DNA from: Paraspadella gotoi | Taxonomy: Eukaryota; Animalia; Chaetognatha | Assembly (NCBI GenBank): GCA_051294375.1 | Contig: CM119267.1 | Location: forward strand, 13,966,710 to 14,030,709 | Direction of reading: 5' to 3' | Length of the DNA stretch: 64,000 nucleotides | Shown here: positions 12,893 to 64,000 of the stretch, one piece after another | Numbering within the stretch: position 1 is the first letter of the stretch | Layout: every line of letters begins with the position of its first letter | Translations under genes and position numbers: made by a program | The notes under the pieces: generated by a model | Seen by the model: the letters and a program-made list of their open reading frames with translations, nothing else | What the model was told of the DNA's origin: nothing | Database searches by the model: none

Positions 12893-13004
<112 letters not shown>

Positions 13005-13091
13005 CTCCTCCCTCGACCCCCCTCACTTCCTCCTCACGGGAAACGTCAAAGCTGTGAAGGCTAAAGGTCTCGGCTAACTAATTGCGCAGCA

Positions 13092-13129
<38 letters not shown>

Positions 13130-13299: not shown

Positions 13300-13715
13300 C
13301 GTTTTTCTTCTTTTTTATCCCTGTCGTCGTCGTCGTCGTCGTCATCATTATCCTTTTCGGGGTCGTCTTGATCATTCCCGTCGTTGTCGTTATTGTCATC
13401 GTCCTCGTGATCGCCATCATCGTCTTCATCGACATCATTGTCATCGTCTTCATCGTCGTAGTCATCTTTTCAGGGGTAGTCTTGGTCGTTTTCTTCTTTT
13501 TATTTCCAGTTGTTATCCTAATCGTCGTCGTCATCATCCTTTTCTGGATTGTCTTGATCATTTTTACCTTTTTCATCCCCGTCATTGTCGTCATCATCGT
13601 GATCGCCATCATTTTCATCGTCATGATCGTTGTTGTTGTCCTCATTCTCTTCGGGTTCATCTTGGTCTTCATGGTCCTAGTCGTCATCATCGTCGTCATC
13701 ATCGTCGTCATCTTC
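13300..13715. repeat. Degenerate (TCG/TCA)n triplet repeat with higher-order units
   Basis: The unit TCCTTTTCGGGGTCGTCTTGATC recurs in variant form near 13351, 13465, 13537 and 13646. CGTGATCGCCATC occurs twice. Explains the Val/Ile-, His/Arg- and Met/Thr-rich ORFs. Confidence 0.85.
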
Positions 13716-14568: not shown

Positions 14569-14601
<33 letters not shown>

Positions 14602-14650
14602 GTAACTACGTATTTCTCTCTCTCTCACACCATCGCGTAAACTTAATCAT

Positions 14651-14701
<51 letters not shown>

Positions 14702-14995
14702 GCGATGAGCGAGTACACCCGGATTTCTCCCTCTCTTTCCTCTCGAAAAAAAAAAGCTTAAGTCATCAGAATAAAACCTCTTCTCCGATGAAATCCATTT
14801 GAATTTCAAAGTCTACTTTTCGTAAGCGCGATGGATTTTTCCTCATGCAAATCTTCGTAACGTTTCACCATCGAAATTCCACGATTTTTTTTTCCTGATT
14901 TTTTTTAACGTTTTTACAAGTATTTTTTTTTCGTCTCCCTTTTGACTTTTAAAGGATGTTTTTAGCCGATGGTCGGAAATGTATAAGCCGGGAAT

Positions 14996-15039
<44 letters not shown>

Positions 15040-15929
15040 AAAGAAAAAAATCTCGTTTTTCACAGATGAGCAGACTGAATATGATTCGTTTAAAGAAGCC
15101 AATCAACATATGAAAGGCGCGAACTGACCATTCGACGCCCTAAGGTAAAGAAAAACGCAAGAATGGGTGGTGACCCGAAGGTTGAGATCACAAGGTCAAT
15201 GAAAAAGGCCATTGTATGCATTAGGATGACGAGCGCGCTGGGGAGAGGGCTTTATATTTAGTTCTGAGATTCAGATGGAAGAGTGAAGAAGACTACGAAG
15301 TTTCACACTCAGAATTATGGGTCGAGAATATTGAATCTCCGTAAAGCGCTTGTTAAAATTAAACCTTTTTCTAGTAAATATGTCTTCGAATTTGGTAAAC
15401 GAGCTAACTTGACATGGGACATGGATTAAGGTCTCCCTTTCTCTTACTAGATAATATCATATCGTAACATAACATCGAGAATTCGTGGGAAGGCCAAGAG
15501 TAGTGTCGGTCCAACGCTGCAGAGTGAGTCAGGAGAGGAGAAGAAACGAGCAGCGATCGCTGCGGGTCAAATTCAAAATGGCCGCCGTCGGTGTCGAATC
15601 TTCTCCGCCTTATTCTTTTTTTTTCGATCTCCACTGTCTTTTACCGCTCTGCCGCCCCCTCTGTCGGCTCACGCGGTCTAATTAATGATCGCATCTCGGT
15701 CGACGGAGGCCAAAATATGCAAACGAGGAGCGCATCCCTAAAAAAAAACCCTCGCGGGCTACGATATGCAAACAAGCGTTTCCAAAAAAAAANNNNNNNN
15801 NNNNNNNNNNNNNNNNNNNNNNNNNNNNNNNNNNNNNNNNNNNNNNNNNNNNNNNNNNNNNNNNNNTTCCTTTTGGTTTTTTCAGCGTCCGGTGGATCAC
15901 TCAACCTATGTTCTCTCTTCTTTCATCCT

Positions 15930-16049
<120 letters not shown>

Positions 16050-17481
16050 ATTTGCATTTCAAATATTCCTTTTTTCATCTGAAAAAAAAGGTTCGGTGCA
16101 GAAGATTGGCCTCTGAGATGTGAGATATCGTGAATGTGAGTGGCGATCGACGATGAGCGATGACTCTACGCGTGATCGATGCGCTCCTTCCGCCCCCCCC
16201 CGCCCCCCAAACTTCCTCGTCACATCATATCGCGCGCGCGTGAATCCGCGTGCGTCGTGGCGCCCGTGGGTATTCGTCGTTCGCGTCTCACGTTCGCGTT
16301 TGGGGATATCTCCGTAAAATGTTTTATGGCGATTTTCTTATTTATTCGTCTGGAGAGAAGCGACACCCCGTTGTTTTTTTTTTCCGTCTGTCCTTCTGTC
16401 TGGGAGTCCGTTTACCGTTTTCTCTCCATCCTTCCACTTCTTTCGCGCCTTTTTTTCTCGGTTTCAATTTCTCCTTTCTGCTTCTTCAATCTCCAACGCC
16501 CTCTCTCCGCTGACGATTTCCCTTTTTCCAGTTCATAATATCTTTTCCCTTTTCTATCTCCTTTCTCCCTCTTCGTTATTCTTCCTATTTTCCTCTTTCA
16601 CTTATTCTTTCTCTTTCCCCTTCTTTCTCGTTTTCTGCTTTTCCTCCTTAATCCTCTTCTCTGTCTACTCGAACTCTAGTGACCAAAGTCGAGCTAAGTT
16701 TTCGCTTCACTACGCCATCTATTTTTTCTTTTATATCTTCCACTCACCCAATCAACCCCGATCATCCGCGGACTTGAGCGTCTACTCCCGTATTAAAAAT
16801 AGAAAATTTCCTATAAATATGATTTAATCAATCATTAGTTTTTAAGAACCATAATTTAATTACGTTATCAGCATGAGTAGTACAGTACAGAGCAGTAGGT
16901 AAGATCCAAATGTTCAAAACCGAACGAAGAATAATTATTCAGCCATTTCCTCTTATTATTTGAACTTAGTCAAATCAAACTTTGCCCAACAGGATAATCA
17001 AAGCTTTTTTTCCCAGCCTGACTTAGAAATAGGTTAGCGTCCGAGGGCCTCGAGGCCTCGTGGCCAAACATCACTCTTTCCACCCTTCTTCTTCTTCTTC
17101 TTCTTCTTCTTCTTCTTCTTCTTCTCTTCTTTTCTTCTTCTTCTTCTTCTTCTTCTTCTTCTTCTTCTTCTAACCACTCCCACAGTCCCCCTATCTCTCC
17201 CCCTCTCACCATTAAGCCTTCCCCCTCCGCCCCCTGACGCGGAAGTCTACTCCTCTCGATTCCTCCTCTCGCCTCCGCCAAAATCACCGGAATTCGAAGA
17301 GAAGGAGATTGAAATAAGACGCGAGGAAAAAAAAAGAAGAAAGAAGAAAAGAAAAAAAGAAAATGAAGGAAAAAAGAAAAAGAAAAATGTGGAAGAAATG
17401 ATTGAAAGTCGACGTCGTTGGTTCCTCGACGATTCTATGAATGATCTTTCGCATAAAGACTCACGAAAAACCCCCTTTGCG

Positions 17482-17578
<97 letters not shown>

Positions 17579-18084
17579 TCATCTCTAACCCCCTCCGGCG
17601 CCTCCCATTGATCGGGCCTCGATATTTATCCTCTTTGCCACCAGCCATCCCTGGGCTAATATCTTTTTACCTTTCTCGCTTATTCCCCTTATTCCTTCCC
17701 CCGAAACCTCGTTCTCTTCACTTCCACTCTCAATCTTCTCATCTATCTCCCTCTTCCCCTCAGCCAGTCTGGCGACTCGGAATCCCTCAGAGTTCGAAAA
17801 ATTCCCGCGGTGCATTGAGCAGCTTAATATACCGAGTTATTTGCAGAGTTATTGTTATTGTCGACATAACTGACCGGCGCACAGAGCGTTTTAAGATTAA
17901 AAAAAAAAGAAGAGAGAACAACTAAGAGAAATATAATTTTGCAAGAGCACTATATTCCCACGGAATATATATTAGTAATTGGGCGGTTTTAAAATCATTT
18001 AAAAGTAAACTATTGTGAACAGAGTCTGGCGAGAAGCTGTTCAAAAACTATTCGTATACATTAAAATAAAGATTTTATGGCAAC

Positions 18085-18310
18085 AGCCGGGTTGCCTGTG
18101 ATGCCCATTGGGATGGGACATCTCACTGTTGGCTTTAGGGGCTTCCGACCCTCAGTGGCGCCACCTTAGGACGGTCTCGCTTTGCCAACGCAGAGGGAAG
18201 TCGTTAGGACGATGGAACGCAGCGCCTGGGATGGTGCGTCCCCCCTCTGAGCCAATGGGATTTGCTGAACCATGGAGTATGTAAGGCGGTGTGATTATAC
18301 CGCCAAAATT
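18085..18310 (+). ncRNA. Candidate structured RNA or structured repeat, unassigned (strand tentative)
   Basis: GC-rich island with nested complementary segments: CCCATTGG 18104-18111/CCAATGGG 18252-18259, GTTGGC 18128-18133/GCCAAC 18184-18189, CAGAGGG 18191-18197/CCCTCTG 18243-18249, and a terminal hairpin GGCGGTGT-GATT-ATACCGCC 18285-18304 followed by AAAATTTTT. Confidence 0.3.
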
Positions 18311-18486
18311 TTTCTAAAAAATTTAGCCTACGAAGTCGAACCAAGCAAAACAAGCTGCGTGGACAGCTGCGCCTTTGCTCCAAAGCCGAGGACGGATATT
18401 ATAGGACTGAGGACTCTTCATCCTCAAAGAAAAAAGTCTTTTTTTTTGCTTTGGAAGCCGAAACAAGCAGATACAGAGATAAAGAA

Positions 18487-18522
<36 letters not shown>

Positions 18523-19235
18523 AAACCATAGGCCGAACCGAGTGGTCGTAAGATATTGAACAGATGTGGTAATTTTCTTATGATGGAATTCGGGCAGGGA
18601 TTGCCTTCTCACAGCTGACTGCCTTTCGTCCAGGCCTGAGATCGGGGCGAGGGAGAAAGGGATAGAGAGAGGCCGGTTCCAAGGGGGGTAAATAAAATGA
18701 GATGGCGAAGGAGTAAAGGGGCCAAAGGGTTCTTAAGTTGGTCACTTAAGTCATCTTGAGAATAAAGAATGTTTCCTAAAGGTAAAACGCGAACTCTCTC
18801 TGTCCCTTTAATTATTATCGACCGCCTTTTTACTCGATTAGACAATTGGATTTTAGTTCAACATCAGGATTTTTAAACTTTTAAAATTAGAATGAGTAAT
18901 ACTGATGGCTTTTGTTCAATTACAATATATTCGGGATGTTCACTAGATCGTGAAACGTCGAAAAGTCCTAATCGATCTTAGCTCTCTTTCTCTCTTTCTC
19001 TCGCCCCGCGAACTCGCAGAGGAAATCTCTCTGCCCCGCCCACTGGCGCGAAACGGACATAAAACGCAATTTTCGCTGCTCATTTGTCCGATTTTTGCCG
19101 TCGTTCTCGTCGTCGCTCGCGGCGACGCCTCTCGGGCGAAGGATGAAAACTAATTTCGGTCGCCGTAAAAACGAGACCTCGCCGCTACCGTGACGAGGAG
19201 CGGGCAATCGTGTTCGCCGCTGCCGCTTTTTTTTT

Positions 19236-33091: not shown

Positions 33092-36000
33092 GGGCGGCGG
33101 CCCGTCAGCGGGCGTGAAACGAAACCGACGACGGACGAAGTTTCGGCTTTCGTCATCCGAGGATCCACCCGACGCGCGTGGAGCAGCTCGAGGTCGACGC
33201 GCTGCCGTACGCGCCGGTCTCGCCGTCGCGACGCCATCTTGAAAATCAACGGGGAAATGACGTGGAAGGCGTCGCACACGCACGTCGGTCAAGCTGCTGC
33301 AGGGTTCGGGATCGTTCGCCGACGCTGCTGGTGTCGCTTGGGGAGGCGGAGGAGGAAGCGGGAGATGGTTTTGGGGGAGATTTGTTCGATTCCTCCTTTG
33401 GGGTTGCCGAGCGGAGGGCGCGCTTTTCTCGCGAAAAGGAGTGGCGAAAATCTTACGGGATATTTGGAAGAAGAGGTGTGTTTGTTGGTTGGAATGAGGG
33501 AAACGAGGTCAAATTTGACAAATGTATTAATTCTTAAAATGAGCTCTGTAATAATGGGAAGCCAAGCCAAGCCAAGTTTTTGTTGTTGTCGTTGGTTTTT
33601 TGTTTGAATTGATTTTGTCAGCCGACTCCATTTCACTTCCAATCCCCATTCAGGTCGTAAAAATCTAGCGATCTCGCTTATCTCATCAGACCCCCTCAGG
33701 GAAGATGGATCCAAATCAGAAGCTGAGCTTTCGAAGAATTCAGCCTTGGACCGCCTTCAACCGGGGAGGCATCTTATCTTGGCAATGCGGACTTTCAAAG
33801 AGAAAGATCGGAGTATCACTTGACCAAAATAGCAGCAAATCAAACTGCGCAAGATCCTCGAAGATTTACTTCGACGATCGAGACGTCGCCGCCTTCGCGG
33901 ACCGGCAGTTCGACGACCTGCTGGACAACGACGCCAAGCGCGACCCCTCTGGCCAGGATCCTTCAGTTATTGCTTATTCGCACCAAGAGTTTATTAAGAA
34001 CGGGAGAAGGAAAAGAAGGAAATCTTCTGAGGTCGTTGGGTTCGCAGCGGATCGAAGAGTTGGAAAAGATCGAAGGCAACGGACGGATCGAGTTCGGGGA
34101 GATCCACCGATTCAAAAGTCACGAGTCGAAAAAACAAAGAGAAAATATTAGAGACATCGAAGAGTTAAAAAAGGCCCTCCTTGACCAAAGACGGACGACG
34201 ACGACCCCATCGACCTCGAAACGGAAAACTCCATCGCCTCAGGCTCAACCCAGTTTATCGACTCATCCGCCAAATGGAGCGAGAACGCCTGAACAAGGCA
34301 CGCCGAAATCCTGGGAGAGCATCCAGCACCGATCCGACGGCCGATTGAAGACGGCGTTGAGGCGACAAAGCTTCGACACGTTGCAGACGTTCGAGTGGAG
34401 GAAGTGACGGCGAACCTCGTTTGAACGAGGACAGTTGAGAGCGCAGAGGCGGATCGCCGTTTGAGCATCGGAAGATGCGGATGGAACGGAGGCCGTCCTC
34501 ACCGGCTCGTCGATGTGGACGCCCGGCTCTAAAGAGTAAAGGGGCGGTATGAGAGGCCGGCGACTCGCGCGGACGATGCGCTGGGAAAATCTCGTCGTCG
34601 AAATCCGTGGAGACTCCCAGGACGAAATGGTGAAGATGAGGAGGAGGCAGGAAGAGTGGGATGTTCACGTGACTTAATTTCGATATTTTCTCTTCGACAG
34701 TGAGGATTTGATGAAGAGTGAGGTCTTGGAAGAGGAGATAGAGCGTCAGAGTGGTCAGAGTCATCCCTGATCCATCTGCTACAGTGACGACAACGAGACA
34801 ACGGACACGCCCTTAACGACGACGAAATCGCCTCCTTCGAGAATTTCTCGTTGCCTGACCCTTTCGAGCGAGAAACAGACTCAAGAAGGGGAAGGGATCC
34901 CAGTAAGTCGACGCGGGAAAGAAACTCACCCATGGACCGGAGGAAAAAACTTCGTGCAGCAGGCCAATTCGAAATCTCCGCAGCACAGGACTAAATCCGC
35001 CGAATCAACTCCGACGAACGGAGACCAAACGACGACAATGTTCGCAAGCAACAATAACAGGCAGAAATTCCAGAATAGGCCAGCAACATCGCGTTTGTGC
35101 TTCCGGTCCGTCACAACGCCATGGAACTCCCAAGCGACGAATTACGCGAGGTCCGTCAACCGGGAGGAGTTGCCTCCGGACCCCACCTCCTCCTCCTCCA
35201 CCACCGCCCCCTCCTCCTCCGCCACCACCGCCACCTACAAAATCAGCCGAAGAAGAAACATCCTCCTTCCGTCGCGACCCGATCGCCCTCGACCGTCGCA
35301 AAGCCCCCTTGACAGTTCTGATGGCGGAGCTGCAGGCGCCGCGTCAACTCTTCCTGCTGCGTCCGGAGGACAATTCGACGACGATTGGGGACGGTCGATT
35401 GCGAGGGACCGTCTTAGGAAACATCGTCTGAGGCGCGAAAACTTCGAGATGGCCGTCAAAGACTATGGACGCTCCACGCTGACTCCGGATGTCGCCGAGG
35501 ACGTGGAAAGGGCGTTTGCCCGGAAGAGCGGAGACGGTTTGGGGGAGGAGGAGGGGATTCGGGTAAAGGACGTTGCGGTCATGAACAGACTCGAGAAGGT
35601 TTGATGTCGTGGAGAGGTTATATAGAATTGGATTGATGGATTCATTGAAATAATTGTTGATTTGAATTTAATTTACCGATCAAATGCGTATGAATTGAAT
35701 GATTGGTTTTGAATGTATTCCTTGACTGATTGATTTGATCGGGTTTTGATTCAAGATACGATTCCATTTTTCAGATTCCGTTTCTCAACTTCGCGTTCGC
35801 GATTTGATGTTTAAAACGCAATTTTGCAAAAAAGCAGAAAGAACCGAGCAAAGTTTTTTCGCTCATTTCCCTGCCGCCGAGGAAATCGTCATGAGCGAGA
35901 TGCTCGGCGCATTTTCGCAGGTCATTCAAATCATGCACGCTGAGCCGAGACCAAGGTTCGTTTGGTTTTTTTTTTATTTTAATGAAAATAAGCTAAAATA

Positions 36001-49268: not shown

Positions 49269-52200
49269 CGTGCAAGGTAGCGCTTGTCACGATTTTTCCT
49301 CGCGACGTTAGAAACTCGAGCGTGAGGAATTCCAAAACGTCGAGCATTTTTCTTTTTTCTTTCTTTTTTTCCCTTTTTTTTTTCGAGCATAAAACTCCAT
49401 CTATTCTCGTCGACGTGACAACAAAAACAAAATACAAACCAAAACAGTAACAACGACAACAACACCTTGAATAATTGCGACTTGGTGCCGAAAACCATTT
49501 TCGCTTTTTTTTTTCGGGAAATTTTTCTTAAGTAGTGAAGGGTCGTTTTGAAAAAGGAAACTCCTAGTATGGAAGTGTGGAAGTGATGGAAAGCGGTTAC
49601 GTTTGTAGGAAATTCGGAAAACAAGAAAGAAAGTTCCCGAATTCGTAAGAAGCAATCTTCACTGCATCAGTGCAACACACTCAAATATGGAAAAAGGCAA
49701 CAATAAAAAAGCCATCAACAGTCAACACGACGCCATAACTTTGTCGACCTTAGTCGCTTCCTCTCCTGACTTACCTCGTATATTGAAATAAAAATAAGAA
49801 AAAAAAAAACTAAACAAAAACAAACAAAAAGAGAAGAGTTTTGACCCTCTGCAAATTTAGTAGTAGGTATGTAGTAGGGTAGTAGAATAGGTAATACTAT
49901 TAAATTTGTATGAGAACTTAAAATTTTAAATTAAAAGTAAATTTGAACACATAGAATGAGATGTGAGATATTAGGAAGTTTAGACATGAAGGATGAAGAA
50001 ATGGAACGTTTCCCGATCCATCGAAATGTCTCGAAGCTAAAACAGTCTTGATTGGCTCGTTTCGCCCTTCAACTAGTTCGTCCTGTTCTAAGTCGCCATG
50101 CAACAGCGGGTAATCTCCCACCCTCCCTTACTGGCAAGGTTGCCACCACTCACTACCACCACTCTCCAGTCTCCACCAATCCCCGTTTCGAGGATTAACC
50201 CGCGGAACAGAGATGGCGATTTGTGCGAAGATGAAATTCCTTCGGACTGAAACGAGGAGAAAGCGTAGGAGAGGGAAGTTCCGCGGAGTGAGATCGAATT
50301 GAAGGGTGGAAATAAGGAAGTGGAATAAGGAATAAGTGAAATAAGGAAGTGGAATCCACCGAAGCGGGAGTGAAAAGGTTAAAGGTTAAATAGTGGCGGG
50401 CATGACTTTGGGTTCGGGTTCGAGTTAAGGCGGAACAGGTTGAAAACTAGATGTTCTATATGTATATATAATACATATATATATTTTTATATATATGTAT
50501 GATAAGTAGATTTTCTATATGTATATATAATACATATATATGCTTGGAGCGCAAAATTTTGAAATTTCTTAAAATCCGTCAGGTGGGCAATAAAGCAATT
50601 ATTCCTCCGGCATCTGTTCCTAGCGAATATAAAGAAAATTTTAGCCATATTCGAAGAGTTATGAGAGCCCTGAACTTCTGGACTAGAGAAAAGTTTACTG
50701 TATGTATTAAAGCGTAGCCAGCAATATTTAATATCAGTAAAATCACGAAACAGGCTGTAAAACATTTTTAAATCTAAAAATATTTTTTTAATTTTCACAT
50801 TAGGCCCTAGTACCTTCGCCTAGACAATGTTCAAAGTTTTAAATGTTTTTTTCTTATTTTTAAAAGTCTATAGTTATCAGAGATTCGAATTCATTTATAT
50901 AAAAGTGAAAATAACACATTTTTCGAAAATTTTCATTGAGTCAAAATCCTAAAAAAACTATTATAAATCAACCTAATAATTAAATTTTTAGTTGTAAAAA
51001 AAAGTTTTTGCAAACTTAATATGAAAAGAATTTTGAATAAAACTTATATTTTCTGTTACATCAACTTCTATGAGGAATGTCGTGTAGATAGACCAATGCT
51101 GCTTACCTCTCTTACCTAAAATCTGCTTTCCAAAAATAAAAAAAATTTTAAATTTGAACATTCTGTTGGTAGTTTAGTATAAGTTAGCTATAATGTTTTA
51201 TGTATAATATGCGGCTTAATGCAAATTGAGAAATTTTTTTAAAAAAATTTAATATAAATTTTCTTTAGTCTTTAGTTACTTTAGTTCTTTAGTTCATGAT
51301 CAACGTATGTATCGAATTATGATCTGCAAACTTTCACTACGCCTTAATATATATATATTGTTAAATAAAATTAAATGAAACAGTTTTCAGGATTTAACTT
51401 TAGTAAATGTATCTTATAGCTTAAGGCAAGCAAGTTTTTTTAAATCAACCAAGTTTTATATAAAATTACAATTTTATATAACTGTCAAACTTACAGAATA
51501 ATGATTATAATTTGTGAAAATAAAAAAAAATCAAAATTACCATTATTTCACTTTTTTATCTCTATCAGAATCCGGTTTTTCAAAATCAATAATTTATAAA
51601 TTATATTTAAATAAATAACAAATTATATCATAATTTGTTAATTTATTTATACCGATATTAAAAAAAAATAAATTATGCATTACAGTGTCAGGTACAAATG
51701 AATTGCTTAAAAATGTAAAATTATAAATCAATTTAGTATCAAATAACAAATAGTTTAATTAGAATAATTTTTTTATTGTAAAAAAAAAAACTCTTTCCTA
51801 ACAGAGCGAAGAGTTGACTAGTGTGAGATGAGTGAACAGGGTAAAATTAATTGGTGCCGTTTCTTCGTCGTTCGGGTCAAGTTGGATAAAAAGTCTAGAA
51901 ATCTCTGCGTGTGAAGCATCAACTTCCAAGCGAAAGGGAGTGATTTGAGGCAAATATAATTAAAAATATCAGTTGGAAGCTGAGTTGTTCTAAGGGTCTT
52001 TGAATTTCATGTATATGAATGACATTCGCGAAAGTCCTTATATTGCCCGTTATTTAAGCGTTTTTTTGTCCTTTTTGGTCCCGTACCTTTTTGTCACCGC
52101 GTGCGACGGCAGATTTTACGCTCGCTCGATAAATTTTACACTTCAAACGTAATAAAACCAAGTGAAAAACTGGCGAGCTATATGAATCACGTGATATTTT

Positions 52201-53093
52201 GAAAGACAGCAGGTGTAAAAAAAAGGTCGATAAATTACTGTGAAACGACTGAACGGTTGCAAATCTTCAGAAATGCGAAGAGAGAAAATCGTGATACGAG
52301 TTCGTTGCCAGTAGACTGAGATGATTTAGTAGACGTGACGTTCCGGACGCGAGCGACTCGGACGATTTCCCCCAATTTTTTTTTATCTTTCGTTTAAGAG
52401 AAAAAAAAAAACAACAAAAAACAAAAACCCGAAATTGACAAATAAAATTCTTTTATATTTTCCCCTTCGTTTTGCAGTACGAATATATTGAAAACCAAAC
52501 ATTGAAAACAACAATCCAAATTTTACGAACGTCGTTCTTTTTTCAAAATAAAAATAAAAACGAGACGAAGAAGAAAATAAAAAAAGAAAAATATTCCTTT
52601 TGTTTTCTTTGTATATTTGTTTTCTCTTTACTTTCTCGGGTTTATTTCTCCGCAAGTGAAAAAGAGAAAAAAATTTCCGTATAAGAAAATTAAAAGTACG
52701 TAAGAGGACGAACGACGAACGACGACGACGACGACAACCGACGTTTGAATAACGAAGCACGACCCGGCCTCTGAGGAGAAATAGAAAGATGACAAGGTGA
52801 AAGACCGACACATAAGCAGAGAGGGGTGAGGAGGAGGAGAGAGAGGAAGAGAGAGGAGACGGGTGAAGGGGAAGGAGGAGGAGGAGGATGCACGTGAAGG
52901 AGGAGGAATAAGAAAAAAGGGAGGTTCACTAAAGGAAAAAGGAGACGAGCGCTTTTTGGAAGCAGAAGCTAAGACAAGAAGAAAGAGAAAGAGAGAATGA
53001 GAGAGTCGAGAGAGAGAACTTTAGAAAGAGAAGATAGAAGGCTGAGACAGAAGGATGCAACGAGAGTAGGAGGCAGAAGAGAGAGAGAGAGAA

Positions 53094-53125
<32 letters not shown>

Positions 53126-54035
53126 CCTAACGAGAAAGAAGGATAAAATCTAGGACAATGAAGAGAAAATGCAAAGGAGAGTAAAAGGGAAGAGAGGAGA
53201 GAGAGAGGAATGAGAGATGAGAAGAGAAGAGAGGAGAGGAGAGAGTAGAGAAGAACTAAAGAAAGAAGGATAAATTAGGCAAGAGAAGAAATGCAAAGGA
53301 GAGTAAAGGAAAGGGAGAGAAGAGAAGATCAGAGAATGAGAAGAGAGGAGAGAGAGAGAGAGAAGCTAAAGAAAAAGATAGAAATTAAGGCAAATGAGAG
53401 AAATGCAAAAGGAGAGTAAAGGCGGAAAAAAGAGAGAGTGAGAGGAGAGGAGAGAGAGAGAGAGAGAGAGAGACTAAAGAAAGAAGGATATAATTTTAGA
53501 GGCAATGAGAGACATGATAGAGAGGAGAGAGAGAGAGAGAAGGAAACTAAAGCAGGAGGAAATTTAGGCAATGAGACAGAGCGAGACAGAGAGAGAGAAA
53601 ACACTGCAAAATGGCAAGAATCTGGGAAGTAACGAACCGCGAGAGATAAACAAGAAACTCAAAAGAAGGGTTTTCAATTCGCTGCCTCGCGACGAGGCGG
53701 AAAATCTTCTTGCACACAATGGAGGAGAAATGGAATGGGGAGGGAACGGCGGCGGGCGGCGGAGGCGGCGGCGGCGTTTTTTTTTTTGCGTTTTTTGAAA
53801 AGAAATCAGCATCGGAATGAATACATGAATTAAATGATTGAGGTCTAAGTTTTTTTTTTTCGTGCTTTGGAACGGACAGATGATGATTCTTAATTTCGGA
53901 GGGTGTATGAAAAATGCATGGTATACAAATTCAAAATGCTGGTTTAAATCAAAAGGTTTGATAATCAAAATCTACGAATTAATAACTCTCGTATCTTCTG
54001 GTCGTCTTTCAATTGCAGAAAAATAAAACGCCTTG

Positions 54036-54620
54036 AAACAAGTTTGAGCAAACAACGCCGGAATCTGCAAGCGGGCATTTAGCGTAGAGGCCAATCAGAT
54101 GATTAGTTAATATTAATCTGGCAATTTTTTGTGTTTTATTAAACAATTTACCGACAATATTAATAATTCTAACTTTTTTTTATGGTAGTTTGCTTTAATT
54201 TTCGTTTTTATGGAGCTGGTGGTGGTAGTTTTGATTTGAACTGTTTGGTTAATAATTGTTGTAGTTGTTGTTGCAACATAGCATTTTACATTTCAAAGGC
54301 CAAAACTAAATGTTAAGCGTAATTTTTTGTTTTTTCCACTTCAACCTGCATTTCCACTCAGAAGATTTTCATCGAAACATGATTTTCATCTAAAAGCACA
54401 AATGTTTCCCAGCCCTACAACAATATTTAAGGTCAACCGCACAATCGAACAAATGAGTAATTGGCGTTCAAAAGCTAAGAGGGGACCGGGACGGACGGAC
54501 GGATGGACATGTTTTTTTGTGAATAATTTATCATATTTGATGTTCGACTTGTCCGGCACGATATGGGGTGGGACCGACGGAACGAAAAAGTGATTATCGA
54601 CCCGGGATCCGGAATAAAAA
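54036..54620 (-). mobile_element. HINE/DINE-1-like element, family B, long copy
   Basis: Begins AAACAAGTTTGAGCAAACAACGCCGGA and ends (GGAC)n..GTGGGACCGACGGA..GGGATCCGGAATAAAAA. Shares both termini with 5764-6007 but has a longer, different interior. Confidence 0.65.
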
Positions 54621-55792
54621 TAACAATTTCTAAATTAACGTTATTAAGAAGTGTCCTGATACTAATTACTATATTGGCAGATGCCACTTTTTGCGGACTG
54701 TCTTCGACTTAACATTCCACCGACAGGAGAAATGGCAATCTTCATAATTTTTACGACTTCGGTCTCATCTCTATGCAAAGAGTCGAGAATGAGCGGAGAG
54801 TTCAAAGAACTTCAGCCTCATTCAGCCGAATATTTTTTTTTATTTTTTTTTTTTTTTTTGCGTTCGCGAAAAAGCAAATTTGGCAATCGATACGGATTTC
54901 GTAATCCGGATATGTTAAATGAGGTCGACTTGTTATTTCTGCGGCAAAAAAAACTTTTGGTGATCGCGTCATTCCCTTTGGTCACGAACATCTCGGACGC
55001 ATCGATTTTTCCGAGCATCGGAATTCCGGCCGTGAACAATGTTTTTATCTTATTGGTTTCATTAACTAGAAAAAAAAAATACATTTGTTGTTTTTATTAT
55101 AATCGCAGAAGAGCAACTATTTATGAAAATTATTACAACCAATATAATTTTTTTTCTTTCATTATATAACATTAAGCAACATAATCATATATTTTTTTAA
55201 GAATTAAGTTTTAAATCTTTGACAAACTGAAAATTAATTTCAGTTTTGGGGAGGAAAAAGGGAAAAAGAAGTCTCACATTGTTAACGATTTTTTTACCCA
55301 TAAAACTGGAGGAGAAGAACGTTAGCATTAAACCATAAGTGACTCAGGATTTCCTGCATCTAATTTGGTTGAAGCGTCAGACATCCTTCTCTCTTGCTAA
55401 TTTCCATGTTAAGAAAGTCTCTCTCTCTCTCTCTTTCTCTCTCTCTCCTTCTTCTTCTCTCTCTGTCTCTCTCTCTCCTCTCTCTCTCCTCCCACCTGTG
55501 ATTCAAAAGAAGTCGTTAATCGTTTCAACTTCGTCTCTCCAACGACAACGGACGAATGAAGACGAACCGACGATTAGTTTTTGTTTATTCTTATAAAAGT
55601 TTATATATATAATTTTGCGCTAAAAGTTATTAAATTGCAAAGCTTAACGGTTTAACATTTTGAAAAGACGTAGAAAGCAGAACAATGAATCGGCATGACC
55701 TCAAGAGAGCAAAAGAAGGACGATGATCTTAAAGTAAGAAAGAAGGGAGAGAGAGAGAGGAGAGGGAGAGAGAGAGAGAGAAGAAGAGGGAG

Positions 55793-55876
<84 letters not shown>

Positions 55877-56222
55877 CCGAATTAAAGAAAATATTTGAAA
55901 ACTTAATAACTAGTGAAAATAAAAAAAAAAAACTTTGTCCCTCGTCTAATGGGCCTCGATACCTCGATAGAGACTGGGTCTGTCCTCGCCTCTTCGTTGC
56001 CAGGGCAGTCACGTCTCTGTTTGTGCTTATTATGATTTTGAATCTTTGATGCAATCTCTTTGGCCACGAGGACGACGAGTATTTCCAGTCAGCGAAGCTG
56101 TCATCCTCTTTTTGATTATCACCGACTGATGTCGTTGTCCGCCAAATGGGATGGAACGCCGCTCATCCTCTTTGTTTGTTGTGGTTTAGATTGTTGTTGT
56201 TGTTGTCGGGAAATAGGGTCGA

Positions 56223-56586
56223 TTTTTAGTTGCGCCGCAGTACTCGCGGTCTTAACTCTAAATAAGTCGGGGACGGTCAGTCGGTATGTCATGTCCATCG
56301 GTTCTTGTCCAACTTTCGTTAAAATGCTAATAACTTGCATTATTGTTGGTTATTCATTTTTTTAAGACAGGAAAAACCTAAAAATCTAAGGGACTAACTA
56401 CGCCGCCTTCAGGAATCCTAAAACTATAAAGAATAAATGAGGAATTCCGATGCAGTGTGTGTCATAAATACACGGAAAAGAAAGTTATTGTCGTCATGTT
56501 GTCTTGTCTGGTCAACACATGTCCATGTTCACGAGAAATATATGTGATATATACGCCTAGTCACATTTGAATTACCGTTCTTGTTT
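56223..56586 (+). mobile_element. HINE/DINE-1-like element, family A, copy 2
   Basis: Starts TTTTTAGTTGCGCCGC, contains GTCY-type repeats and ends GAATTACCGTTCTTGTTT. Homologous to 9087-9491. It lacks the 3' GCGGCGCAAC subTIR seen in the 63004 copy. Confidence 0.65.
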
Positions 56587-57794
56587 CCTAACATCTTTCC
56601 GAATTTTACAACGACGACATATATATATTCCGTCGTAATGTGACTCTATCACGTCTTCATCTGACCTTGTACCGTAATCTCTTTTTCTTTTGTAATAGAT
56701 ATATAATAAAGTTAACAAAGACTCTTATTTTTTTCCGAGTTTGAGAAATTTCTTTGATTTTGGTTTTGAGCTTTGGGTTTATGATCACTTTTTGTTACTA
56801 ATGAGGTGTAATAATTACAAACAAATATATATACATTGTAATACTAGCGCGTAGCACGTTACAAGTAGAAGTAGTAGTATTAAGTCGTAACTAGTTAAAA
56901 GTTATTAACTAAGTTATTAGTTTAAAAATGTACATCCTGGATTTTTTTTGTTGATTTCCGCGGATTCCATATCTCACACCGCCATCGATCGTCGTCGACG
57001 TCGTCGTCGTTTTCATCGCGACCGTCGCTTTGTTCGGTCGTCATCCTCGTCCGGGCGCGTCCGTTTTGAGTTTTGTAAGCATTCGACTTTGAAGCATCTG
57101 GAAAGGTTTAACCTTGGGCCCTGGCGACGACGGACGACGACGCTGAATGCGACGATGAGAGACAGCCCCATGACGACGACGATATGCGAAGACGGCGACG
57201 ACGGCGATAACGACGACCGAAATGAAGATGAAAACTCGCGAGACCAGAGTCTTGAGAGTATGGAGAACAGAGAGCCGCGAAGGGAAGTGGGGGGTTGGTG
57301 AGGGAAGAGAGGGGGGGGAAGAGACGAGGGGGGAGGAGGGAATGAGAAGATTAAAGAAGAGAGTAGGAGAGGTGGAGGTGAGGAAAATAGGAAAATGGTG
57401 TTAAAGATGGGGGCAGAAGGGGTGGAGAGGAATAGAACGTGGGTAGGGAGGAAGGGAGTGTGAGAGTGTGGAGTGTGGAGTCCACAGTGTGGAGTGTGGA
57501 TGTGGAGTCCACAGTGTGGAGTGTGAGGGTAAAAGGAATAAGGGGGAAAGAGGATAAGGAGCTGGNNNNNNNNNNNNNNNNNNNNNNNNNATTTCGAAAT
57601 CTGTTTCAACTTAAAAAAAAATTTTAATTTGGACATTTTATGGTGAGTTTTGTTAATTATGGGATATGCAAATGAGAAAACAAGAAATTTTTTTAAAAAA
57701 TTTAATAATTAAATTTTCTTGCTTCTATTCTTTACGTTTTTAGGTTCATGATATCAACTATATTGAATTATTGATCTGCAACTTTCACTACTGC

Positions 57795-58542
57795 TGAGAG
57801 GCTGTTTTATACAGGGCGCCACACGCAGCGGAGTCACCCTCGTGGCGACGCGAGACAGCATGATTCAATGTAGTCCAGGAGCTTTGGATCTGGAAGTAGC
57901 CCATGCGCCTACAGGCGGTTACCCCTGTCAATCCACTTATCTACACATTGACTACTCAGGGCTCGACCAGGGCACTGCACATGGTGATGATGCCATTAGT
58001 CCACTGAAGCACTGAGGCGCTACGAAAAGAAACAGCTTTATATCCCATCTGTGGATGATAGTACCACCAGCAGCCGCCACCAGGACTCTCGCATTTATGA
58101 GAGTACGAAAGCAGGGATGAAAGGATGATCTCTTCTGGCTGATACCTTTCTTTCCATTCTGGTGGCCTTGCTATTGGTGGCAGCTGTGCTAGCTCAAAAC
58201 ACACACTCAAGGGCAGTGGGATATATCATGCCGGGTTGCGTGTTACGGGTATCACGTCGGGTTCACATTTGAAGAGCTGGAATTTACAGGGCGACCACAC
58301 CGCGCGGAAGTCACCTCGTAGGCGACAGCGAGACAGCTACTGTCATGTAAGATCCAGAGCTTATGGCATCCTGGCATTTAGGCCTGCCTACGGCGGGTTA
58401 CCCGGATCCATCCCACTTTTCTACATGACAACTCAAGGGTCGAACAGGAGCACATTGGGATGAGTGCACTTAAGGCACTGAGTCACTGGAGCGCTGCGAA
58501 AGAAACCAGCTTTATCCACTCTGTTGGTGATAGCCACCAAGA
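57795..58542 (-). mobile_element. Miniature non-autonomous LTR retrotransposon (TRIM-like), tRNA-Trp primed
   Basis: Direct repeats at 57795-58072 and 58270-58542 (about 275 bp; start TGA(A)GAG, end CACCAGCA/CACCAAGA) flank a 197-bp internal region. The minus strand reads TGTGAACCCGACGTGAT (58267-58251) 2 nt after the LTR, versus the canonical Trp PBS TGGTGACCCCGACGTGAT. A G-rich GGTGGCGGC precedes the other LTR. Flanks are AC(t)GC and ACGC, and the empty site at 51339-51342 in the sister copy has a single ACGC. Confidence 0.85.
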
Positions 58543-60839
58543 ACGCCTTAATATATATGATATGTTAAATAAAATTAAATGAAACAGTTTTCAGGATTTA
58601 ACTTTAGTAGATGTATCTTATAGCTTAAGGCAAGCGAGTTTTTTTAAATCAACCAAGTTTTATATAAAATTACAATTTATATATAACTGTCAAACTTACA
58701 GAATAATGATTATAATTTGTGAAAATAAAAAAAAATCAAAATTACCATTATTTCACTTTTTTATCCTATCAGAATCCGGTTTTTCAAAATCAATAATTTA
58801 TAAATTATATTTAAATAAATAACAAATTATATCATAATTATGTTAATTTATTATATACCTATTAAAAAAAAATAAATTATGCTAATTAACCGTGAGTACA
58901 AATGAATTGCTTAAAAATGTAAAATTATAAATCAATTTAGTATCAAATAACAAAATAGTTTAATTAGATAATTTTTTTATTGTAAAAAAAAAAACTCTTT
59001 CCTAACAGAGGAAGAGTGACAGTGAGAGAGTTGAACCAGGGTAAAATAATTTGGTGGCGTTTCGTCGTTGGGCTCAAGTGATAAAAATCTAGAAATCTCT
59101 GCGTGTGAAGGCATCACTTCCAAGCGGAAGGCGAGTGATTGGAGCAATATATTAAAATATCGAGTTGGAAGGCTGAGTTGTTCTAAGGGTTTTGAATTTC
59201 ATGATATTGAATGACATTTCCGAAAGTCCTTATATTGCCGTATTTAAGCGTTTTTTGTCCCTTTTGGTCCCCGTACCTTTTTGTCACCGCGTGCGACGGC
59301 AGATTTTACGCTCGCTCGATAAAATTTTACTTCAAACGTAATAAAACCAAGTGAAAACTGCGAGTAATAATCACGTGGATATTTTGAAAGACAGCAGGTG
59401 TAAAAAAAAGGTCGGATAAATTGCTGTGAAACGACTGAACGTCTGAAATCTTCAGAAATGCGAAGAGAGAAAATCGTGATACCGAGTTACGCTGGCGTAG
59501 ACTGAGATGATTACGTAGCGTGACGTATCGTGACGCAGCGACTCGGGACGATTTCCCCCAATTTTTTTTTATCTTTCGTTTAGAGAAAAAAAAAACAAAA
59601 CAAAAAACAAAAACCGAAAATTGGAAAAAAAAATTCTTTTTTTCCCTTCGTTTTTGCGACGATATTGAAAACAAACATTGAAAACAAACATCCAAATTTT
59701 ACGACGTCGTCTTTTTTCAAAATAAAAATAAAACGAGACGAAAGAAAATAAAAAAGAAAAAATATTCCTTTTGTTTTCTTTTATATTTTTTTCTCTTTCT
59801 TTCTCGGGTTTATTTCTCCGTCGTGAAAAGAGAAAAATTTCCGTATAAAGAAAATAAAAGTCGAAGAGGACGACGACGACGACGACGACGACGACAACGA
59901 CGTTTGATAACGAAGACGACCGGCCTGAAGGAGAAATAGAGGAACAAGTGAAAAGACCGACACTAGAGCGAGAGGAGGAGGAGGAGGAGGAGGAGGATAA
60001 GAAAAAAGCGAAAGAGGTTAGCCTAAGAAAAAAAAAAAAGTGAGAATTCAGGATCAAAAGAACTTTTTGAAAGCGAGAGACGAGACAGAAGGAGCACGAG
60101 AGAGGAGCAGAAAGAGAGAAGAGGGAGAAGGACGAGAGAGAGAGAGAGAGAGAGACCTAACGTAGAAAGACAGTGATAGAATCTAGAGACAATGAGAGAA
60201 ATGCAAAGGAGAGGTAAAAGGGAAAGAGATGGAGAGAAGAGAGAGAAAGATGAGAGATGACACGAAGAGAAGAGAGGAGAGGAGAGGATGTAGAGAAGAG
60301 ACTAAAGATAAGAAGGATAATTTAGGGCAAGAGAGAAATGACAAAGGAGCAGTAAAAGGTGGAGAAGAGAGATCAGAGAATGAGAAGAGAGGAGAGAGAG
60401 AGAGGACTAAAGAAAAAGATAGAAATTTTAAGGCAAATGATCTCTCTCTNNNNNNNNNNNNNNNNNNNNNNNNNNNNNNNNNNNNNNNNNNNNNNNNNNN
60501 NNNNNNNNNNNNNNNNNNNNNNNNNNNNNNNNNNNNNNNNNNNNNNNNNNNNNNNNNNNNNNNNNNNNNNNNNNNNNNNNNNNNNNNNNNNNNNNNNNNN
60601 NNNNNNNNNNNNNNNNNNNNGAGAGAGAGAGAGAGAGAGAGAGAAGAAACTAAAGCAAGGAGGAAATTTAGGCAATGAGACAGCGAGACAGAGAGAGAGA
60701 AAACACTCAAAATGGAAGAAATCTGGGAAGTAACGAACCGCGAGAGATAAACAAGAAACTCAAACGAGGGTTTTCATTCGCGCCTCGCGACCGAGGCGGA
60801 AATCTTCTTGCAACATGGAGGAGATGGAATGGGGAGGGG

Positions 60840-60872
<33 letters not shown>

Positions 60873-61127
60873 TTTTTTTTTTTCGTTTTTTGAAAGAAAA
60901 TCAGCATCGGATGAATACAAATGAATTCAAATGATTGAGGTCTAAGTTTTTTTTTTCGCGCTTTGGAACCGGACAGATGATGGATTCTAATTTCGGAGGG
61001 TGTAATGAAAAATGCATGGTATAAATTCAAAATGCTGGTTTAATCAAAGGTTTTGATAATCAAAATCTCGAATAATAACTCTCGTATCTTCTGGTCGTCT
61101 TTCAATTGCAGAAAATAAAACGCCTTG

Positions 61128-61697
61128 AAACAAGTTTGAGCAAACAACGCCGGATCTGCAAGCGGGCATTTAGCGGTAAACGGCCAATCAGATGATTAGT
61201 TAATATTAATCTTGCAATTTTTGTGTTTTATTTAAACAATTTACCGACAATATTAATAATTCTACTTTTTTTTATGGTAGTTGCTTTAATTTTCGTTTTT
61301 ATGGGAGCTGTGGTGGTAGTTTTGATTGAACTGTTTGTTATAATTGTTGTAGTTGTTGTTGCAACATGCATTTACATTTCAAGGCCAAAACTAAATAGTT
61401 AAGCGTAATTTTTGTTTTTTCCACTTCAACTCATTTCCACTCAGAAGATTTCATCGAAACATGATTTTCATCTAAATCACATGTTTCCCAGCCCACCAAC
61501 AATATTTAAGGTCAACCGCACAATCGACAAATGAGTAATTGGCGTTCAAAGCTAAGAGGGGACGGACGGACGGACGGATGGACATGTTTTTTTGTGAATA
61601 ATTTATCATAATTTGATGTTCTGACTGTCCGGCACGATATGGGGTGGGACCGACGGACCGACAAAGTGAATTATCGACCCGGGATCCGGATAAAAAA
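61128..61697 (-). mobile_element. HINE/DINE-1-like element, family B (duplicate of 54036-54620)
   Basis: Same sequence and flanks as 54036-54620 within the segmental duplicate. Confidence 0.65.
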
Positions 61698-63003
61698 TAA
61701 AATTTAAATTAACGTTATTAAAGAAGTGTCTGATACTAATTACTATATTGCAGATGCCACTTTTGCGGACTGTCTTCGACTTACATCCACCGACAGGAGA
61801 AATGGCAATCTTCATAATTTTACGACTTCGTCTCATCTCTATGCAAAGAGTCGAGAATGAGCGGAGAGTTCAAAGAACTTCAGCCTCATTCAGCCAATAT
61901 TTTTTTTCTTTTTTTTTTTTTTTGCGTTCGCGAAAAACAAATTTGGCATCGATACGGATTTCGTAATCCGGATATGTTAATGAGGTCGACTTGTTATTTC
62001 TGCGCAAAAAAAAAACTTTTGGTGAATCGCGTCATTCCTTTGGATCACGACATCCGGACGCATCGATTTTCGAGCATCGGAATTCGGCCGTGAACAATGT
62101 TTATTTTTGGTTTACATTAACTAGAAAAAAAAATACATTTNNNNNNNNNNNNNNNNNNNNNNNNNNNNNNNNNNNNNNNNNNNNNNNNNNNNNNNNNNNN
62201 NNNNNNNNNNNNNNNNNNNNNNNNNNNNNNNNNNNNNNNNNNNNNNNNNNNNNNNNNNNNNNNNNNNNNNNNNNNNNNNNNNNNNNNNNNNNNNNNNNNN
62301 NNNNNNNNNNNNNNNNNNNNNNNNNNNNNNNNNNNNNNNNNNNNNNNNNNNNNNNNNNNNNNNNNNNNNNNNNNNNNNNNNNNNNNNNNNNNNNNNNNNN
62401 NNNNNNNNNNNNNNNNNNNNNNNNNNNNNNNNNNNNNNNNNNNNNNNNNNNNNNNNNNNNNNNNNNNNNNNNNNNNNNNNNNNNNNNNNNNNNNNNNNNN
62501 NNNNNNNNNNNNNNNNNNNNNNNNNNNNNNNNNNNNNNNNNNNNNNNNNNNNNNNNNNNNNNNNNNNNNNNNNNNNNNNNNNNNNNNNNNNNNNNNNNNN
62601 NNNNNNNNNNNNNNNNNNNNNNNNNNNNNNNNNNNNNNNNNNNNAGAGAGAGAGAGAGAGAGAGCGCCCCGAATTAAAGAAATATTGAAAACTTATAACT
62701 AGTGAAAATAAAAAAAAAACTTTGTCCCCTCGTTCTATGCCTCGATACTCGATAGAGACTGGGTCTGTCTCGCCTCTTCGTTGCCAGGGCAGTCACGTCT
62801 CTGTTTGTGCTTATTATGATTTTGAATCTTTGATGCAATCTCTTTGGCCACGAGGACGACGAGTATTTCCGATCAGCGACGCGTCATCCTCTTTTCGATT
62901 ATCACCGACTGATGTCGTTGTCCGCCAAATGGGATGGACGCCGCTCATCCTCTTTGTTGTTGTGGTTTATGATTGTTGTTGTTGTTGTCGGGAAATAGGT
63001 CGA

Positions 63004-63374
63004 TTTTTAGTTGCGCCGCGAGTACTCGCGTCTTAACTCTATAAGTCGGCGGACGGTCAGTCGGTATGTCTGTCCATCGGTCTGTCCAACTTTCGTTAAA
63101 AATGCTAATAACTTGCATATTGTTGGTTATTCATTTGTTAAGACAGGAAAAACCTAAAATCTAAGGGACTACTAGCGCCGCCTTCAGGAAATCCTAAAAC
63201 TATAAAGAATAAATGAGGAATTCCGATGCAGTGTGTGTCATAAATACACGGGAAAAGAAAGTTATTGTCGTCATGTTGTCTTGTCTCGTCACACCATGTC
63301 ATGTTACGAGAAATATATGTGATATATACGCCTAGTCACTGCGGCGCAACACATTTGAATTACCGTTCTTGTTT
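63004..63374 (+). mobile_element. HINE/DINE-1-like element, family A, copy 3 (same locus as copy 2 in the duplicated segment)
   Basis: 5' TTTTTAGTTGCGCCGCGAGTACTCGCG (subTIR plus palindrome), 3' GCGGCGCAAC..CTTGTTT. Confidence 0.68.
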
Positions 63375-64000
63375 CCTAACATCTTTCCGAATTTTACAAC
63401 GACGACATATATATATTCCGTCGTAATGTGACTCTATCACCGTCTTCATCTGACCTTGTACCCGTAATCTCTTTTCTTTTGTGAGTGGCTAACTATTAAG
63501 TTAACAGACTCTTTTTTTTTTTCACGAGTTTGAGATTCTCTTTGATTTTGGTTTTGAGCTTTGGGTTATGATTACTTTTGTTACTAATGAGGTGTAATAA
63601 TTACAAACAATGAACCTCAAAGCAATCAATTGTAATACTAGCGCGTAGCACGTACAAGTAGAAGTAGTAGTATTAGTCGTAACTAGTTAAAAGTTATTAA
63701 CTAGTTATTAGTTAAAAATGTACATCCTGGATTTTTTTGTTGATTTCCCGGATTCCATATCTCACAACCGCCATCGATCGTCGTCGACGTCGTCGTCGTT
63801 TTCATCGCGACCGTCGCTTTTGTCGTCGTCATCCTCGTCCGGCGGCGTTCCGTCTTTGAGTTTTGTAAGCATTCGACTTTGAAGCATCTGGAAAGCGTTT
63901 AACCCTTGGGCCCTGGCGACGACGACGACGACGCTGAATGCGACGATGAGAGACGCCCATGACGACGACGATATCGAAGACGGCGACGACGGCGACGACG

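What the first reader, a model, noticed from the sequence alone, without database searches (positions are those of the whole stretch)
58234..58324. Three-part complementarity to tRNA-Trp around the primer-binding site
Seen on + strand: (i) ATCACGTCGGGTTCACA (58251-58267), close to the tRNA-Trp 3' 18 nt ATCACGTCGGGGTCACCA; (ii) after a 6-nt spacer ACGGGT, GGTTGCGTGTT (58234-58244), equal to the variable loop plus 5' T-arm of tRNA-Trp; (iii) inside both LTRs ACC(C)TCGT(A)GGCG (57836-57847 and 58313-58324; consensus ACCTCGTGGCG), equal to the 5' end of vertebrate-type tRNA-Trp GACCTCGTGGCG. The tRNA sequence is recalled from memory. The minus-strand transcript could therefore pair with the 3' end, T-arm and 5' end of the primer. 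Established: extended primer contacts exist in Ty1, Ty3 (bipartite PBS), HIV-1 (PAS) and avian retroviruses (U5-TpsiC). Inference: a tiny parasite may use multi-point tRNA capture to compete for primer and RT, or be targeted by 5' and 3' tRNA fragments. I do not know of this arrangement being described for an animal TRIM.
Basis: partly seen in the sequence, partly recalled or inferred. Interest (0 to 1): 0.8.

Follow-up and report, generated by a model that had tools for sequence, protein, structure and literature searches.

The report
Extra primer-tRNA contacts in mini retrotransposon
A tiny protein-free jumping gene carries an over-long match to the tail of the tryptophan tRNA that likely starts its copying, plus an 11-base match to that tRNA's other end, which would give the tRNA a second docking site as in better-studied retroelements; binding and function are untested.

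Summary
All three matches are at the stated coordinates, in a ~750-bp non-coding LTR element (RNA = minus strand). The copy is noisy: its LTRs differ mostly by gaps. Against tRNA-Trp genes fetched here, blocks i and ii are not independent. They form one collinear copy of tRNA positions 44-72 plus tail, broken only at the T-loop (m1A58). All 120 distinct ii-spacer-i matches in public contigs have a 3-nt spacer, and 9 are CCA-ended over-copies. Block iii is real: both LTRs and one accurate contig agree (shuffle chance 0.0008-0.004). However, it is one arm of a predicted U5 hairpin and fully fits only a minority tRNA-Trp type (8 of 103 genes); the host type is unknown. So the contact is likely two-part: a long PBS plus a masked U5 site, like Ty1 boxes and retroviral U5 contacts. 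Conservation across copies could not be tested. The element looks like a Helenus-type TRIM, with twister-like motif pieces that other notes from this genome already report. The scan has also noted over-copied Trp PBSs and U5 tRNA-Trp complements in other genomes. Verdict: new variant of a known kind, moderate interest.

The parts
57792..58540 (-). Short non-coding LTR retrotransposon (TRIM), about 750 bp; right end approximate
   Evidence: Direct repeats; empty-site copy at 51340/51341 fixes the left junction and the right junction to within a few bases; a contig of run X1 spans the left junction; no Pfam hit in its five tested frames
58270..58540 (-). 5' LTR (relative to the element RNA)
   Evidence: 75% identical to the other LTR; 35 gap events, 8 transitions, 22 transversions
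57792..58072 (-). 3' LTR
58251..58267 (-). Block i: primer-binding site for the 3' end of tRNA-Trp (2 differences in 18 nt, likely read errors)
   Evidence: same PBS in Fig. S2 of PMC10886601
58245..58250 (-). 6-nt spacer facing the 3 T-loop bases around m1A58; true length unknown
   Evidence: alignment; no contig covers it; noise simulation
58234..58244 (-). Block ii: complement of tRNA-Trp gene positions 44-54 (variable loop and 5' T-stem strand), collinear extension of the PBS
58313..58324 (-). Block iii in U5 of the 5' LTR, about 45 nt upstream of the PBS: complement of tRNA-Trp positions 2-12 (one inserted base in this copy)
57836..57847 (-). Block iii in the 3' LTR (one inserted base, absent from an accurate contig)
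57816..57850 (-). Predicted U5 hairpin of which block iii is the 5' arm
   Evidence: ViennaRNA folds; the register differs in the noisier high LTR
58425..58508 (-). tRNA-like head with box A (58485) and box B (58446), sense to the element RNA; likely Pol III promoter. Counterpart at 58011/57969
   Evidence: ARAGORN only at a relaxed threshold (ps90); PWM best pair at homologous places in both LTRs but weak singly (p 0.13 and 0.09); a contig loose end shows a canonical box B start
58345..58432 (-). Twister-P5-like motif pieces (counterpart about 57870-57950); predicted cut sites 58400/58399 and 57921/57920, unit about 480 nt
   Evidence: Compared by eye with the Rfam RF02684 consensus; L4/P4-like stem-loop at 57875-57893; 58392-58432 is covered by contigs in 4 of 4 runs; Rfam cmscan finds no twister in either noisy copy
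51330..51355 (+). Empty insertion site in a duplicated copy of the flank

Best explanation
The element is a non-coding LTR retrotransposon whose RNA is likely primed by tRNA-Trp through two contacts, not three: one over-long primer-binding site (blocks i+ii, about 32 nt, broken at the T-loop) and a separate U5 site (block iii) that is predicted to catch the tRNA's freed 5' strand. Shown: the matches, their collinearity, and the presence of iii in both LTRs and one accurate contig. Inferred: a Ty3/gypsy partner supplies RT and chaperone. Block ii arose when plus-strand synthesis ran past m1A58 and the extra copy became fixed; the mismatch falls where m1A58 cannot pair. Annealing of the PBS opens the acceptor and T stems. 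Block ii then pairs with the freed T-stem strand, and the freed 5' strand can open the U5 hairpin and pair with iii, a switch like the masked HIV-1 primer activation signal. Gain for iii is modest, about -5 to -7 kcal/mol before loop cost, and only with the matching tRNA type.
For: Collinearity with fetched tRNA-Trp genes. 120 of 120 distinct ii-N(2-14)-i matches in genome and metagenome contigs have a 3-nt spacer. 9 of these are non-gene copies ending in CCA, running 0-18 nt beyond block ii, and 2 of the 9 have a change at the A58 position. L147 has two such ~32-nt copies stacked before its own short PBS and RT/RNase H/integrase ORFs; L151 has one before a protease ORF. Read-through of m1A58 is documented for HIV-1 (PMC13191261, passages). 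The window is insertion-rich relative to contigs (7 of the 8 indels listed at 58110-58154; 4 of 6), so the 6-nt spacer is probably inflated. Block iii: chance 0.0008-0.004; its duplex (-22 kcal/mol) beats the best duplexes of 13 other tRNA 5' ends (-12 to -17); none of 18 comparator PBS loci has more than a 7-nt exact match to the tRNA 5' end on the U5 side. Precedents: Ty1 box 0/1, Ty3, Gypsy, ASLV, HIV-1.
Against: Only one noisy full copy and one 92-nt contig were seen; no contig covers 58210-58379 in the 4 runs laid, so family-level conservation of ii and the spacer length are untested. Pure noise would rarely put 3-4 edits exactly at the T-loop (0.001-0.05), so part of the spacer is likely real and a true loop remains possible. 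The host tRNA type is unknown; with the commonest type (80 of 103) block iii pairs at -14 to -19 kcal/mol against about 16 kcal/mol opening cost, i.e. marginal. Trp-primed Helenus-2_SyJa and -2_SyUm lack both blocks. Not all 9 CCA-ended copies are LTR PBSs (L139 lies before LINE-like ORFs, L197 is joined to pol-like sequence). In Gypsy the second site is dispensable (PMC1635307 abstract), and in M-MuLV tRNA modifications abolish extra contacts. The three-site complex is a pseudoknot that cofolding cannot model.
Confidence: 0.45

Rival explanations
1. Only the standard 18-nt PBS matters. Block ii is a neutral relic of one read-through event, and block iii is a hairpin arm that matches tRNA-Trp by chance or as a functionless relic.
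For: Over-copied tRNA-Trp 3' ends occur in unrelated settings (9 of 120). iii is one arm of a predicted hairpin costing about 10 kcal/mol to open. The matching tRNA type is a minority. The match was picked post hoc from a scan of many elements. Published Trp-primed Helenus lack both blocks.
Against: An 11-nt match to the same tRNA that primes the element, 45 nt from the PBS and on the right strand, has shuffle probability 0.0008-0.004. Block ii is 11 of 11 perfect although it is not refreshed from the primer each cycle if synthesis stops at m1A58 (inference).
Confidence: 0.3
2. One reading: three separately selected sites, with a real 6-nt internal loop between i and ii as in the bipartite Ty1 PBS, together capturing both displaced tRNA strands and helping the parasite compete for primer.
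For: Edits cluster exactly at the T-loop more than noise predicts. Cofold gives i and ii as two helices round a small loop. Ty1 has this layout (PMC5371799).
Against: The window is insertion-biased. No data on competition.
Confidence: 0.18
3. The blocks are target sites for 5' and 3' tRNA-Trp fragments loaded on Argonaute/Piwi proteins.
For: Block iii matches tRNA positions 2-12, which covers a small-RNA seed (established knowledge); any PBS is a possible 3'-tRF target.
Against: A selfish element gains nothing by keeping a silencing site outside its PBS; iii is predicted to be paired. No small-RNA evidence was obtained.
Confidence: 0.05

Closest known systems
Helenus TRIMs / TRIMp3, nearest Helenus-2_SyJa and -2_SyUm (Kojima 2024, PMC10886601; main text parts 1-4 and 6 of 6, supplement parts 1 and 9 of 11 read, two motif searches)
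   Same: Short non-coding LTR element, tRNA-like box A/B inside the LTR in sense orientation, tRNA-Trp PBS, presumed Gypsy partner
   Different: Those two have a 13-14-nt PBS with no block ii and no block iii; the paper found no complementarity between LTR tRNA-like parts and the PBS and reports no antisense tRNA match in U5. No sequence hit to this family in the supplement (line breaks can hide matches).
Ty1 extended PBS (box 0, box 1, box 2.1; PMC3592414 and PMC5371799, passages)
   Same: Pairing continues 3' of the PBS into the T-arm across a small internal loop, like i+ii
   Different: Autonomous copia-type yeast element, 10-nt PBS, tRNAi-Met; tested biochemically
HIV-1 primer activation signal, ASLV U5-TpsiC contact with tRNA-Trp, FIV (PMC13191261 and PMC5371799, passages; the FIV contact with the tRNA 5' end and the masking of PAS are recalled)
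   Same: A U5 site upstream of the PBS pairs with a tRNA strand freed by PBS annealing
   Different: PAS and the ASLV site bind the T-arm; here the U5 site matches the acceptor 5' strand and the start of the D stem; these are retroviruses with 18-nt PBSs
Drosophila Gypsy second tRNA-Lys,2 site and Ty3 bipartite PBS (PMC1635307, abstract and passages)
   Same: Second 11-nt GC-rich site for another part of the primer tRNA in an animal Ty3/gypsy element
   Different: Lies near the 3' end of the genome, binds anticodon/T stems, and was dispensable for cDNA synthesis
CsRn1 clade of Ty3/gypsy (PMC2582038, passages)
   Same: tRNA-Trp PBS, 4-bp TSD, invertebrate hosts: a plausible autonomous partner
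   Different: No partner found here; its reported PBS is about 12 nt
Plant LTR retrozymes (PMC4918200, passages)
   Same: Non-coding LTR element with a ribozyme-like motif in each LTR, unit RNA holding the PBS
   Different: Hammerhead, tRNA-Met PBS, plants; the twister-like motif here is only partly verified

Membership tests
TRIM | Two LTRs round a short internal part, under 1 kb, non-coding | tested here: met
   About 750 bp, LTRs about 270-280 bp; no Pfam hit in its frames
TRIM | PBS next to the 5' LTR | tested here: met
   58251-58267, 2 nt from the LTR end
TRIM | Polypurine tract before the 3' LTR | tested here: inconclusive
   58073-58090 is only moderately purine-rich on the minus strand and contigs show an indel nearby
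TRIM | Target-site duplication, TG...CA ends | tested here: inconclusive
   An empty site exists; only 2 of 4 expected duplicated bases read correctly on the right; the left end reads TG on the plus strand; other ends are noisy
TRIM | Interspersed high copy number | tested here: inconclusive
   Contig depth up to 6,400-19,000 on parts of the element against 44 for the junction contig; the tool warns that depth is not copy number
Helenus (TRIMp3) | tRNA-derived box A and box B in the LTR, sense strand | tested here: inconclusive
   Best A+B pair at the same place in both LTRs, p 0.09 and 0.13 singly; ARAGORN only when relaxed; canonical box B start in a contig end. Likely met.
Helenus (TRIMp3) | 4-bp TSD in animals | tested here: inconclusive
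Helenus (TRIMp3) | Pol III transcription | not testable with these tools
   No RNA holder laid
Multipartite primer-binding elements (Ty1/Ty3/Gypsy/retroviral type) | Complementarity to the primer tRNA outside the 18-nt PBS | tested here: met
   Blocks ii and iii
Multipartite primer-binding elements (Ty1/Ty3/Gypsy/retroviral type) | Conservation of the extra sites across copies | tested here: inconclusive
   iii in 2 LTRs and 1 contig; ii uncovered in 4 of 4 runs; no genome held
Multipartite primer-binding elements (Ty1/Ty3/Gypsy/retroviral type) | Match to the host's own tRNA | not testable with these tools
   Host not identified; type frequencies
Multipartite primer-binding elements (Ty1/Ty3/Gypsy/retroviral type) | Demonstrated binding or effect on priming | not testable with these tools
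   Needs probing and primer extension
Twister-P5 ribozyme / LTR retrozyme | Rfam RF02684 match | tested here: not met
   No hit at E<=10 in either noisy LTR
Twister-P5 ribozyme / LTR retrozyme | Core motifs in P5 order (L1 strand, P1, UAA, P2, GC, P4 with L4 loop) | tested here: inconclusive
   Pieces seen by eye across both LTRs and contigs against the consensus, with an apparent compensatory pair in T1; P2 is weak and neither copy alone is complete

The most novel reading that the evidence does not exclude
A Pol III-driven, ribozyme-processed mini-retrotransposon clamps tRNA-Trp at both displaced strands within 90 nt of a ~480-nt (possibly circular) RNA. The tRNA's own 5' end would act as a key that opens a U5 hairpin and licenses priming. 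This would be a minimal, protein-free primer-capture switch that lets a parasite outcompete its Gypsy helper, and a compact model for testing why retroelements use contacts beyond the PBS.
Probability: 0.15. Interest if true: 0.75.

Novelty: new variant of a known kind. Interest (0 to 1): 0.4.

Why it matters
Extra primer contacts are known from a few model elements (Ty1, Ty3, Gypsy, ASLV, HIV-1), and their value is disputed. A 750-bp non-coding element that keeps them would show they matter to a parasite with no proteins of its own, and would give a very small RNA for testing them. The over-long PBS also records reverse-transcriptase read-through of a tRNA modification. My searches found no paper describing this layout in an animal TRIM, but the library lacks most subscription journals, Repbase and bioRxiv supplements.

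Tried and rejected
No genome is held, so no multi-copy alignment or host tRNA scan was possible. No second copy in the window. Run search: 8 DNA holders in 2 studies; no RNA holder listed. Laying contigs: nothing covered 58210-58379 in 4 runs, and 3 of 4 runs gave nothing on 57780-57935; holes prove nothing. Viral-contig scans for ii+i and i+iii found 0; a twister-like window pattern gave 8 hits, none a ribozyme. Host identification failed: 151 window ORFs gave no Pfam hit above curated cut-offs and one protein search found nothing. Rfam found nothing meaningful on the element. Look-ups of earlier findings by sequence and relatives were empty. Rejected: a degenerate tRNA gene or permuted tRNA on the plus strand (ARAGORN none at default; the parts lie in LTR and PBS positions). 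Rejected: an old element with diverged LTRs (gap-rich, transversion-rich differences match the noisy flank). Rejected as independent evidence: the PBS-like 10-mer next to iii, because it follows from the hairpin mirroring the acceptor stem. Pairing of iii with the PBS itself is weak (-10 to -14.5 kcal/mol). L123 has a 10-of-12 match to the tRNA 5' end 47 nt from its long PBS; I estimate about 0.09 by chance over 9 loci, so it is not counted as support.

Full report
Observation. They lie in a ~750-bp insertion bounded by direct repeats at 57792-58072 and 58270-58540. A duplicated copy of the flank at 51100-52850 lacks the insertion, which fixes the junctions. A short-read contig spans the left junction. 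The PBS sets the element RNA on the minus strand.

Sequence quality. The LTRs are only 75% identical, but the differences are 35 gap events, 22 transversions and 8 transitions. The left flank shows the same pattern against its empty copy (73%, 28 gap events). Contigs differ from the window by 5-19% in five pieces, mostly because the window has extra bases. I infer raw long-read gap-fill sequence next to the 25-N gap at 57566-57590. Small indels in this copy therefore cannot be trusted.

Real tRNAs. Together these hold 120 distinct matches, 103 of them full-length tRNA-Trp genes. The host could not be identified, so its type is unknown.

Blocks i and ii. Block ii equals gene positions 44-54 and block i positions 58 onward; the spacer faces positions 55-57, which include canonical A58. 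All 120 matches have a 3-nt spacer. Nine are non-gene copies ending in CCA, hence copied from mature tRNA, and they extend 0-18 nt past block ii. Two of the nine differ at A58. L147 carries two ~32-nt copies stacked before its own short PBS, upstream of RT, RNase H and integrase ORFs; L151 has one before a protease ORF. L139 and L197 are not LTR PBSs. Plus-strand synthesis normally stops at m1A58 but can run past it (PMC13191261, passages). So i+ii is most simply one over-copied tRNA tail. Six differences in 32 nt fit the local noise (P 0.13-0.59), but 3-4 edits exactly at the T-loop do not (0.001-0.05). At least part of the mismatch is thus likely real. No contig covers this stretch. The i+ii duplex is -40 kcal/mol against -23 for i alone.

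Block iii. Each LTR has a different single inserted base. One accurate contig (run X2, depth 49) lacks the one at 57839 and so gives the 11-nt match to positions 2-12; two of its substitutions near the ends are unlisted. Shuffle probability is 0.0035-0.0043 for any 11-mer of tRNA 1-58 and 0.00075 for the first 14 nt. None of 18 comparator PBS loci has more than 7 exact bases of the tRNA 5' end on the U5 side. The site lies 45 nt upstream of the PBS and is the 5' arm of a predicted hairpin. Opening it costs about 10 kcal/mol and freeing tRNA 1-12 about 5.5-6, against duplexes of -21 to -22 for the matching type and -14 to -19 for the common type. The full three-site complex crosses (pseudoknot), so cofold shows only i and ii.

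What the element is. On the sense strand each LTR holds a box A/box B pair at tRNA spacing. Evidence is weak per copy (p 0.09, 0.13), but the pair sits at the same place in both LTRs; ARAGORN finds it only when relaxed. This is the Helenus layout (PMC10886601). The two Trp-primed Helenus families that I read in its supplement have a short PBS and neither block. Earlier notes from this genome led me to look for a twister motif. By eye, pieces in P5 order are present when the two LTRs and contig ends are set against the Rfam consensus, but cmscan finds none in this noisy copy. If real, the ~480-nt unit RNA would hold iii, i and ii once each.

Mechanism. Most likely (0.45): tRNA-Trp anneals to the long PBS, which frees its 5' acceptor strand, and this strand can open the U5 hairpin and pair at iii. 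The matches are shown; origin by read-through, binding and function are inferred. Rivals: neutral relic plus chance hairpin arm (0.30), three selected sites with a true loop (0.18), tRF targeting (0.05).

Comparison and novelty. It works like Ty1's looped PBS (PMC5371799, PMC3592414, passages), retroviral U5 contacts including ASLV with tRNA-Trp and Gypsy's second 11-nt site, which proved dispensable (PMC1635307, abstract and passages). Other papers seen as passages only: PMC2582038, PMC4918200, PMC6154101, PMC11181671. Eight literature searches showed no animal TRIM with this layout; supplements other than that of PMC10886601 were not seen, and 9 of its 11 parts were only motif-searched. The scan has noted similar things on other DNA (e1-10321918, e1-9869716); these are leads, not support. 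Verdict: observation confirmed, interpretation partly supported, new variant of a known kind, interest 0.4.

Noticed in passing
window 51100-57200 vs 57591-63995: About 6 kb is duplicated in tandem across 25-N and other gaps (89-92% identity in three blocks); only the second copy has the TRIM. It may be two haplotypes assembled in a row, i.e. a polymorphic, recent insertion, or a real duplication.
   Followed up: partly
Supplement of PMC10886601, Helenus-2_SyJa-LTR and -2_SyUm-LTR: These published Trp-primed LTRs show what looks like a hammerhead ribozyme core (motif recalled) after the tRNA-like head; the parts of the paper I read do not mention it.
   Followed up: no
L147, minus-strand 4927-5051: A Ty3/gypsy element with two ~32-nt over-copied tRNA-Trp tails stacked upstream of its own 14-nt PBS.
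   Followed up: partly
L123 204-295: A 33-nt Trp PBS with a 10-of-12 complement to the tRNA 5' end 47 nt into the LTR, nearly the same spacing as block iii here; suggestive, not significant. The contig is eukaryote-like DNA inside a bacterial MAG.
   Followed up: partly
L121, L122: Animal-type sequence (a 14-gene eukaryotic tRNA cluster; a long Trp PBS) inside bacterial MAGs: contamination of GTDB genomes.
   Followed up: no
L139, L197: CCA-ended tRNA-Trp 3' halves joined to a LINE-like ORF region (ORF1-like protein with a NADAR domain) and to pol-like sequence: RT mis-priming or template-switch products.
   Followed up: partly
828-831-nt contigs matching 58392-58432 in 4 of 4 runs: A diverged sister family shares only the twister-like core with this LTR, which suggests that core is the most conserved part.
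   Followed up: no
window 33669-35604: GC-rich stretch with several long open frames and no Pfam or protein-database hit.
   Followed up: partly
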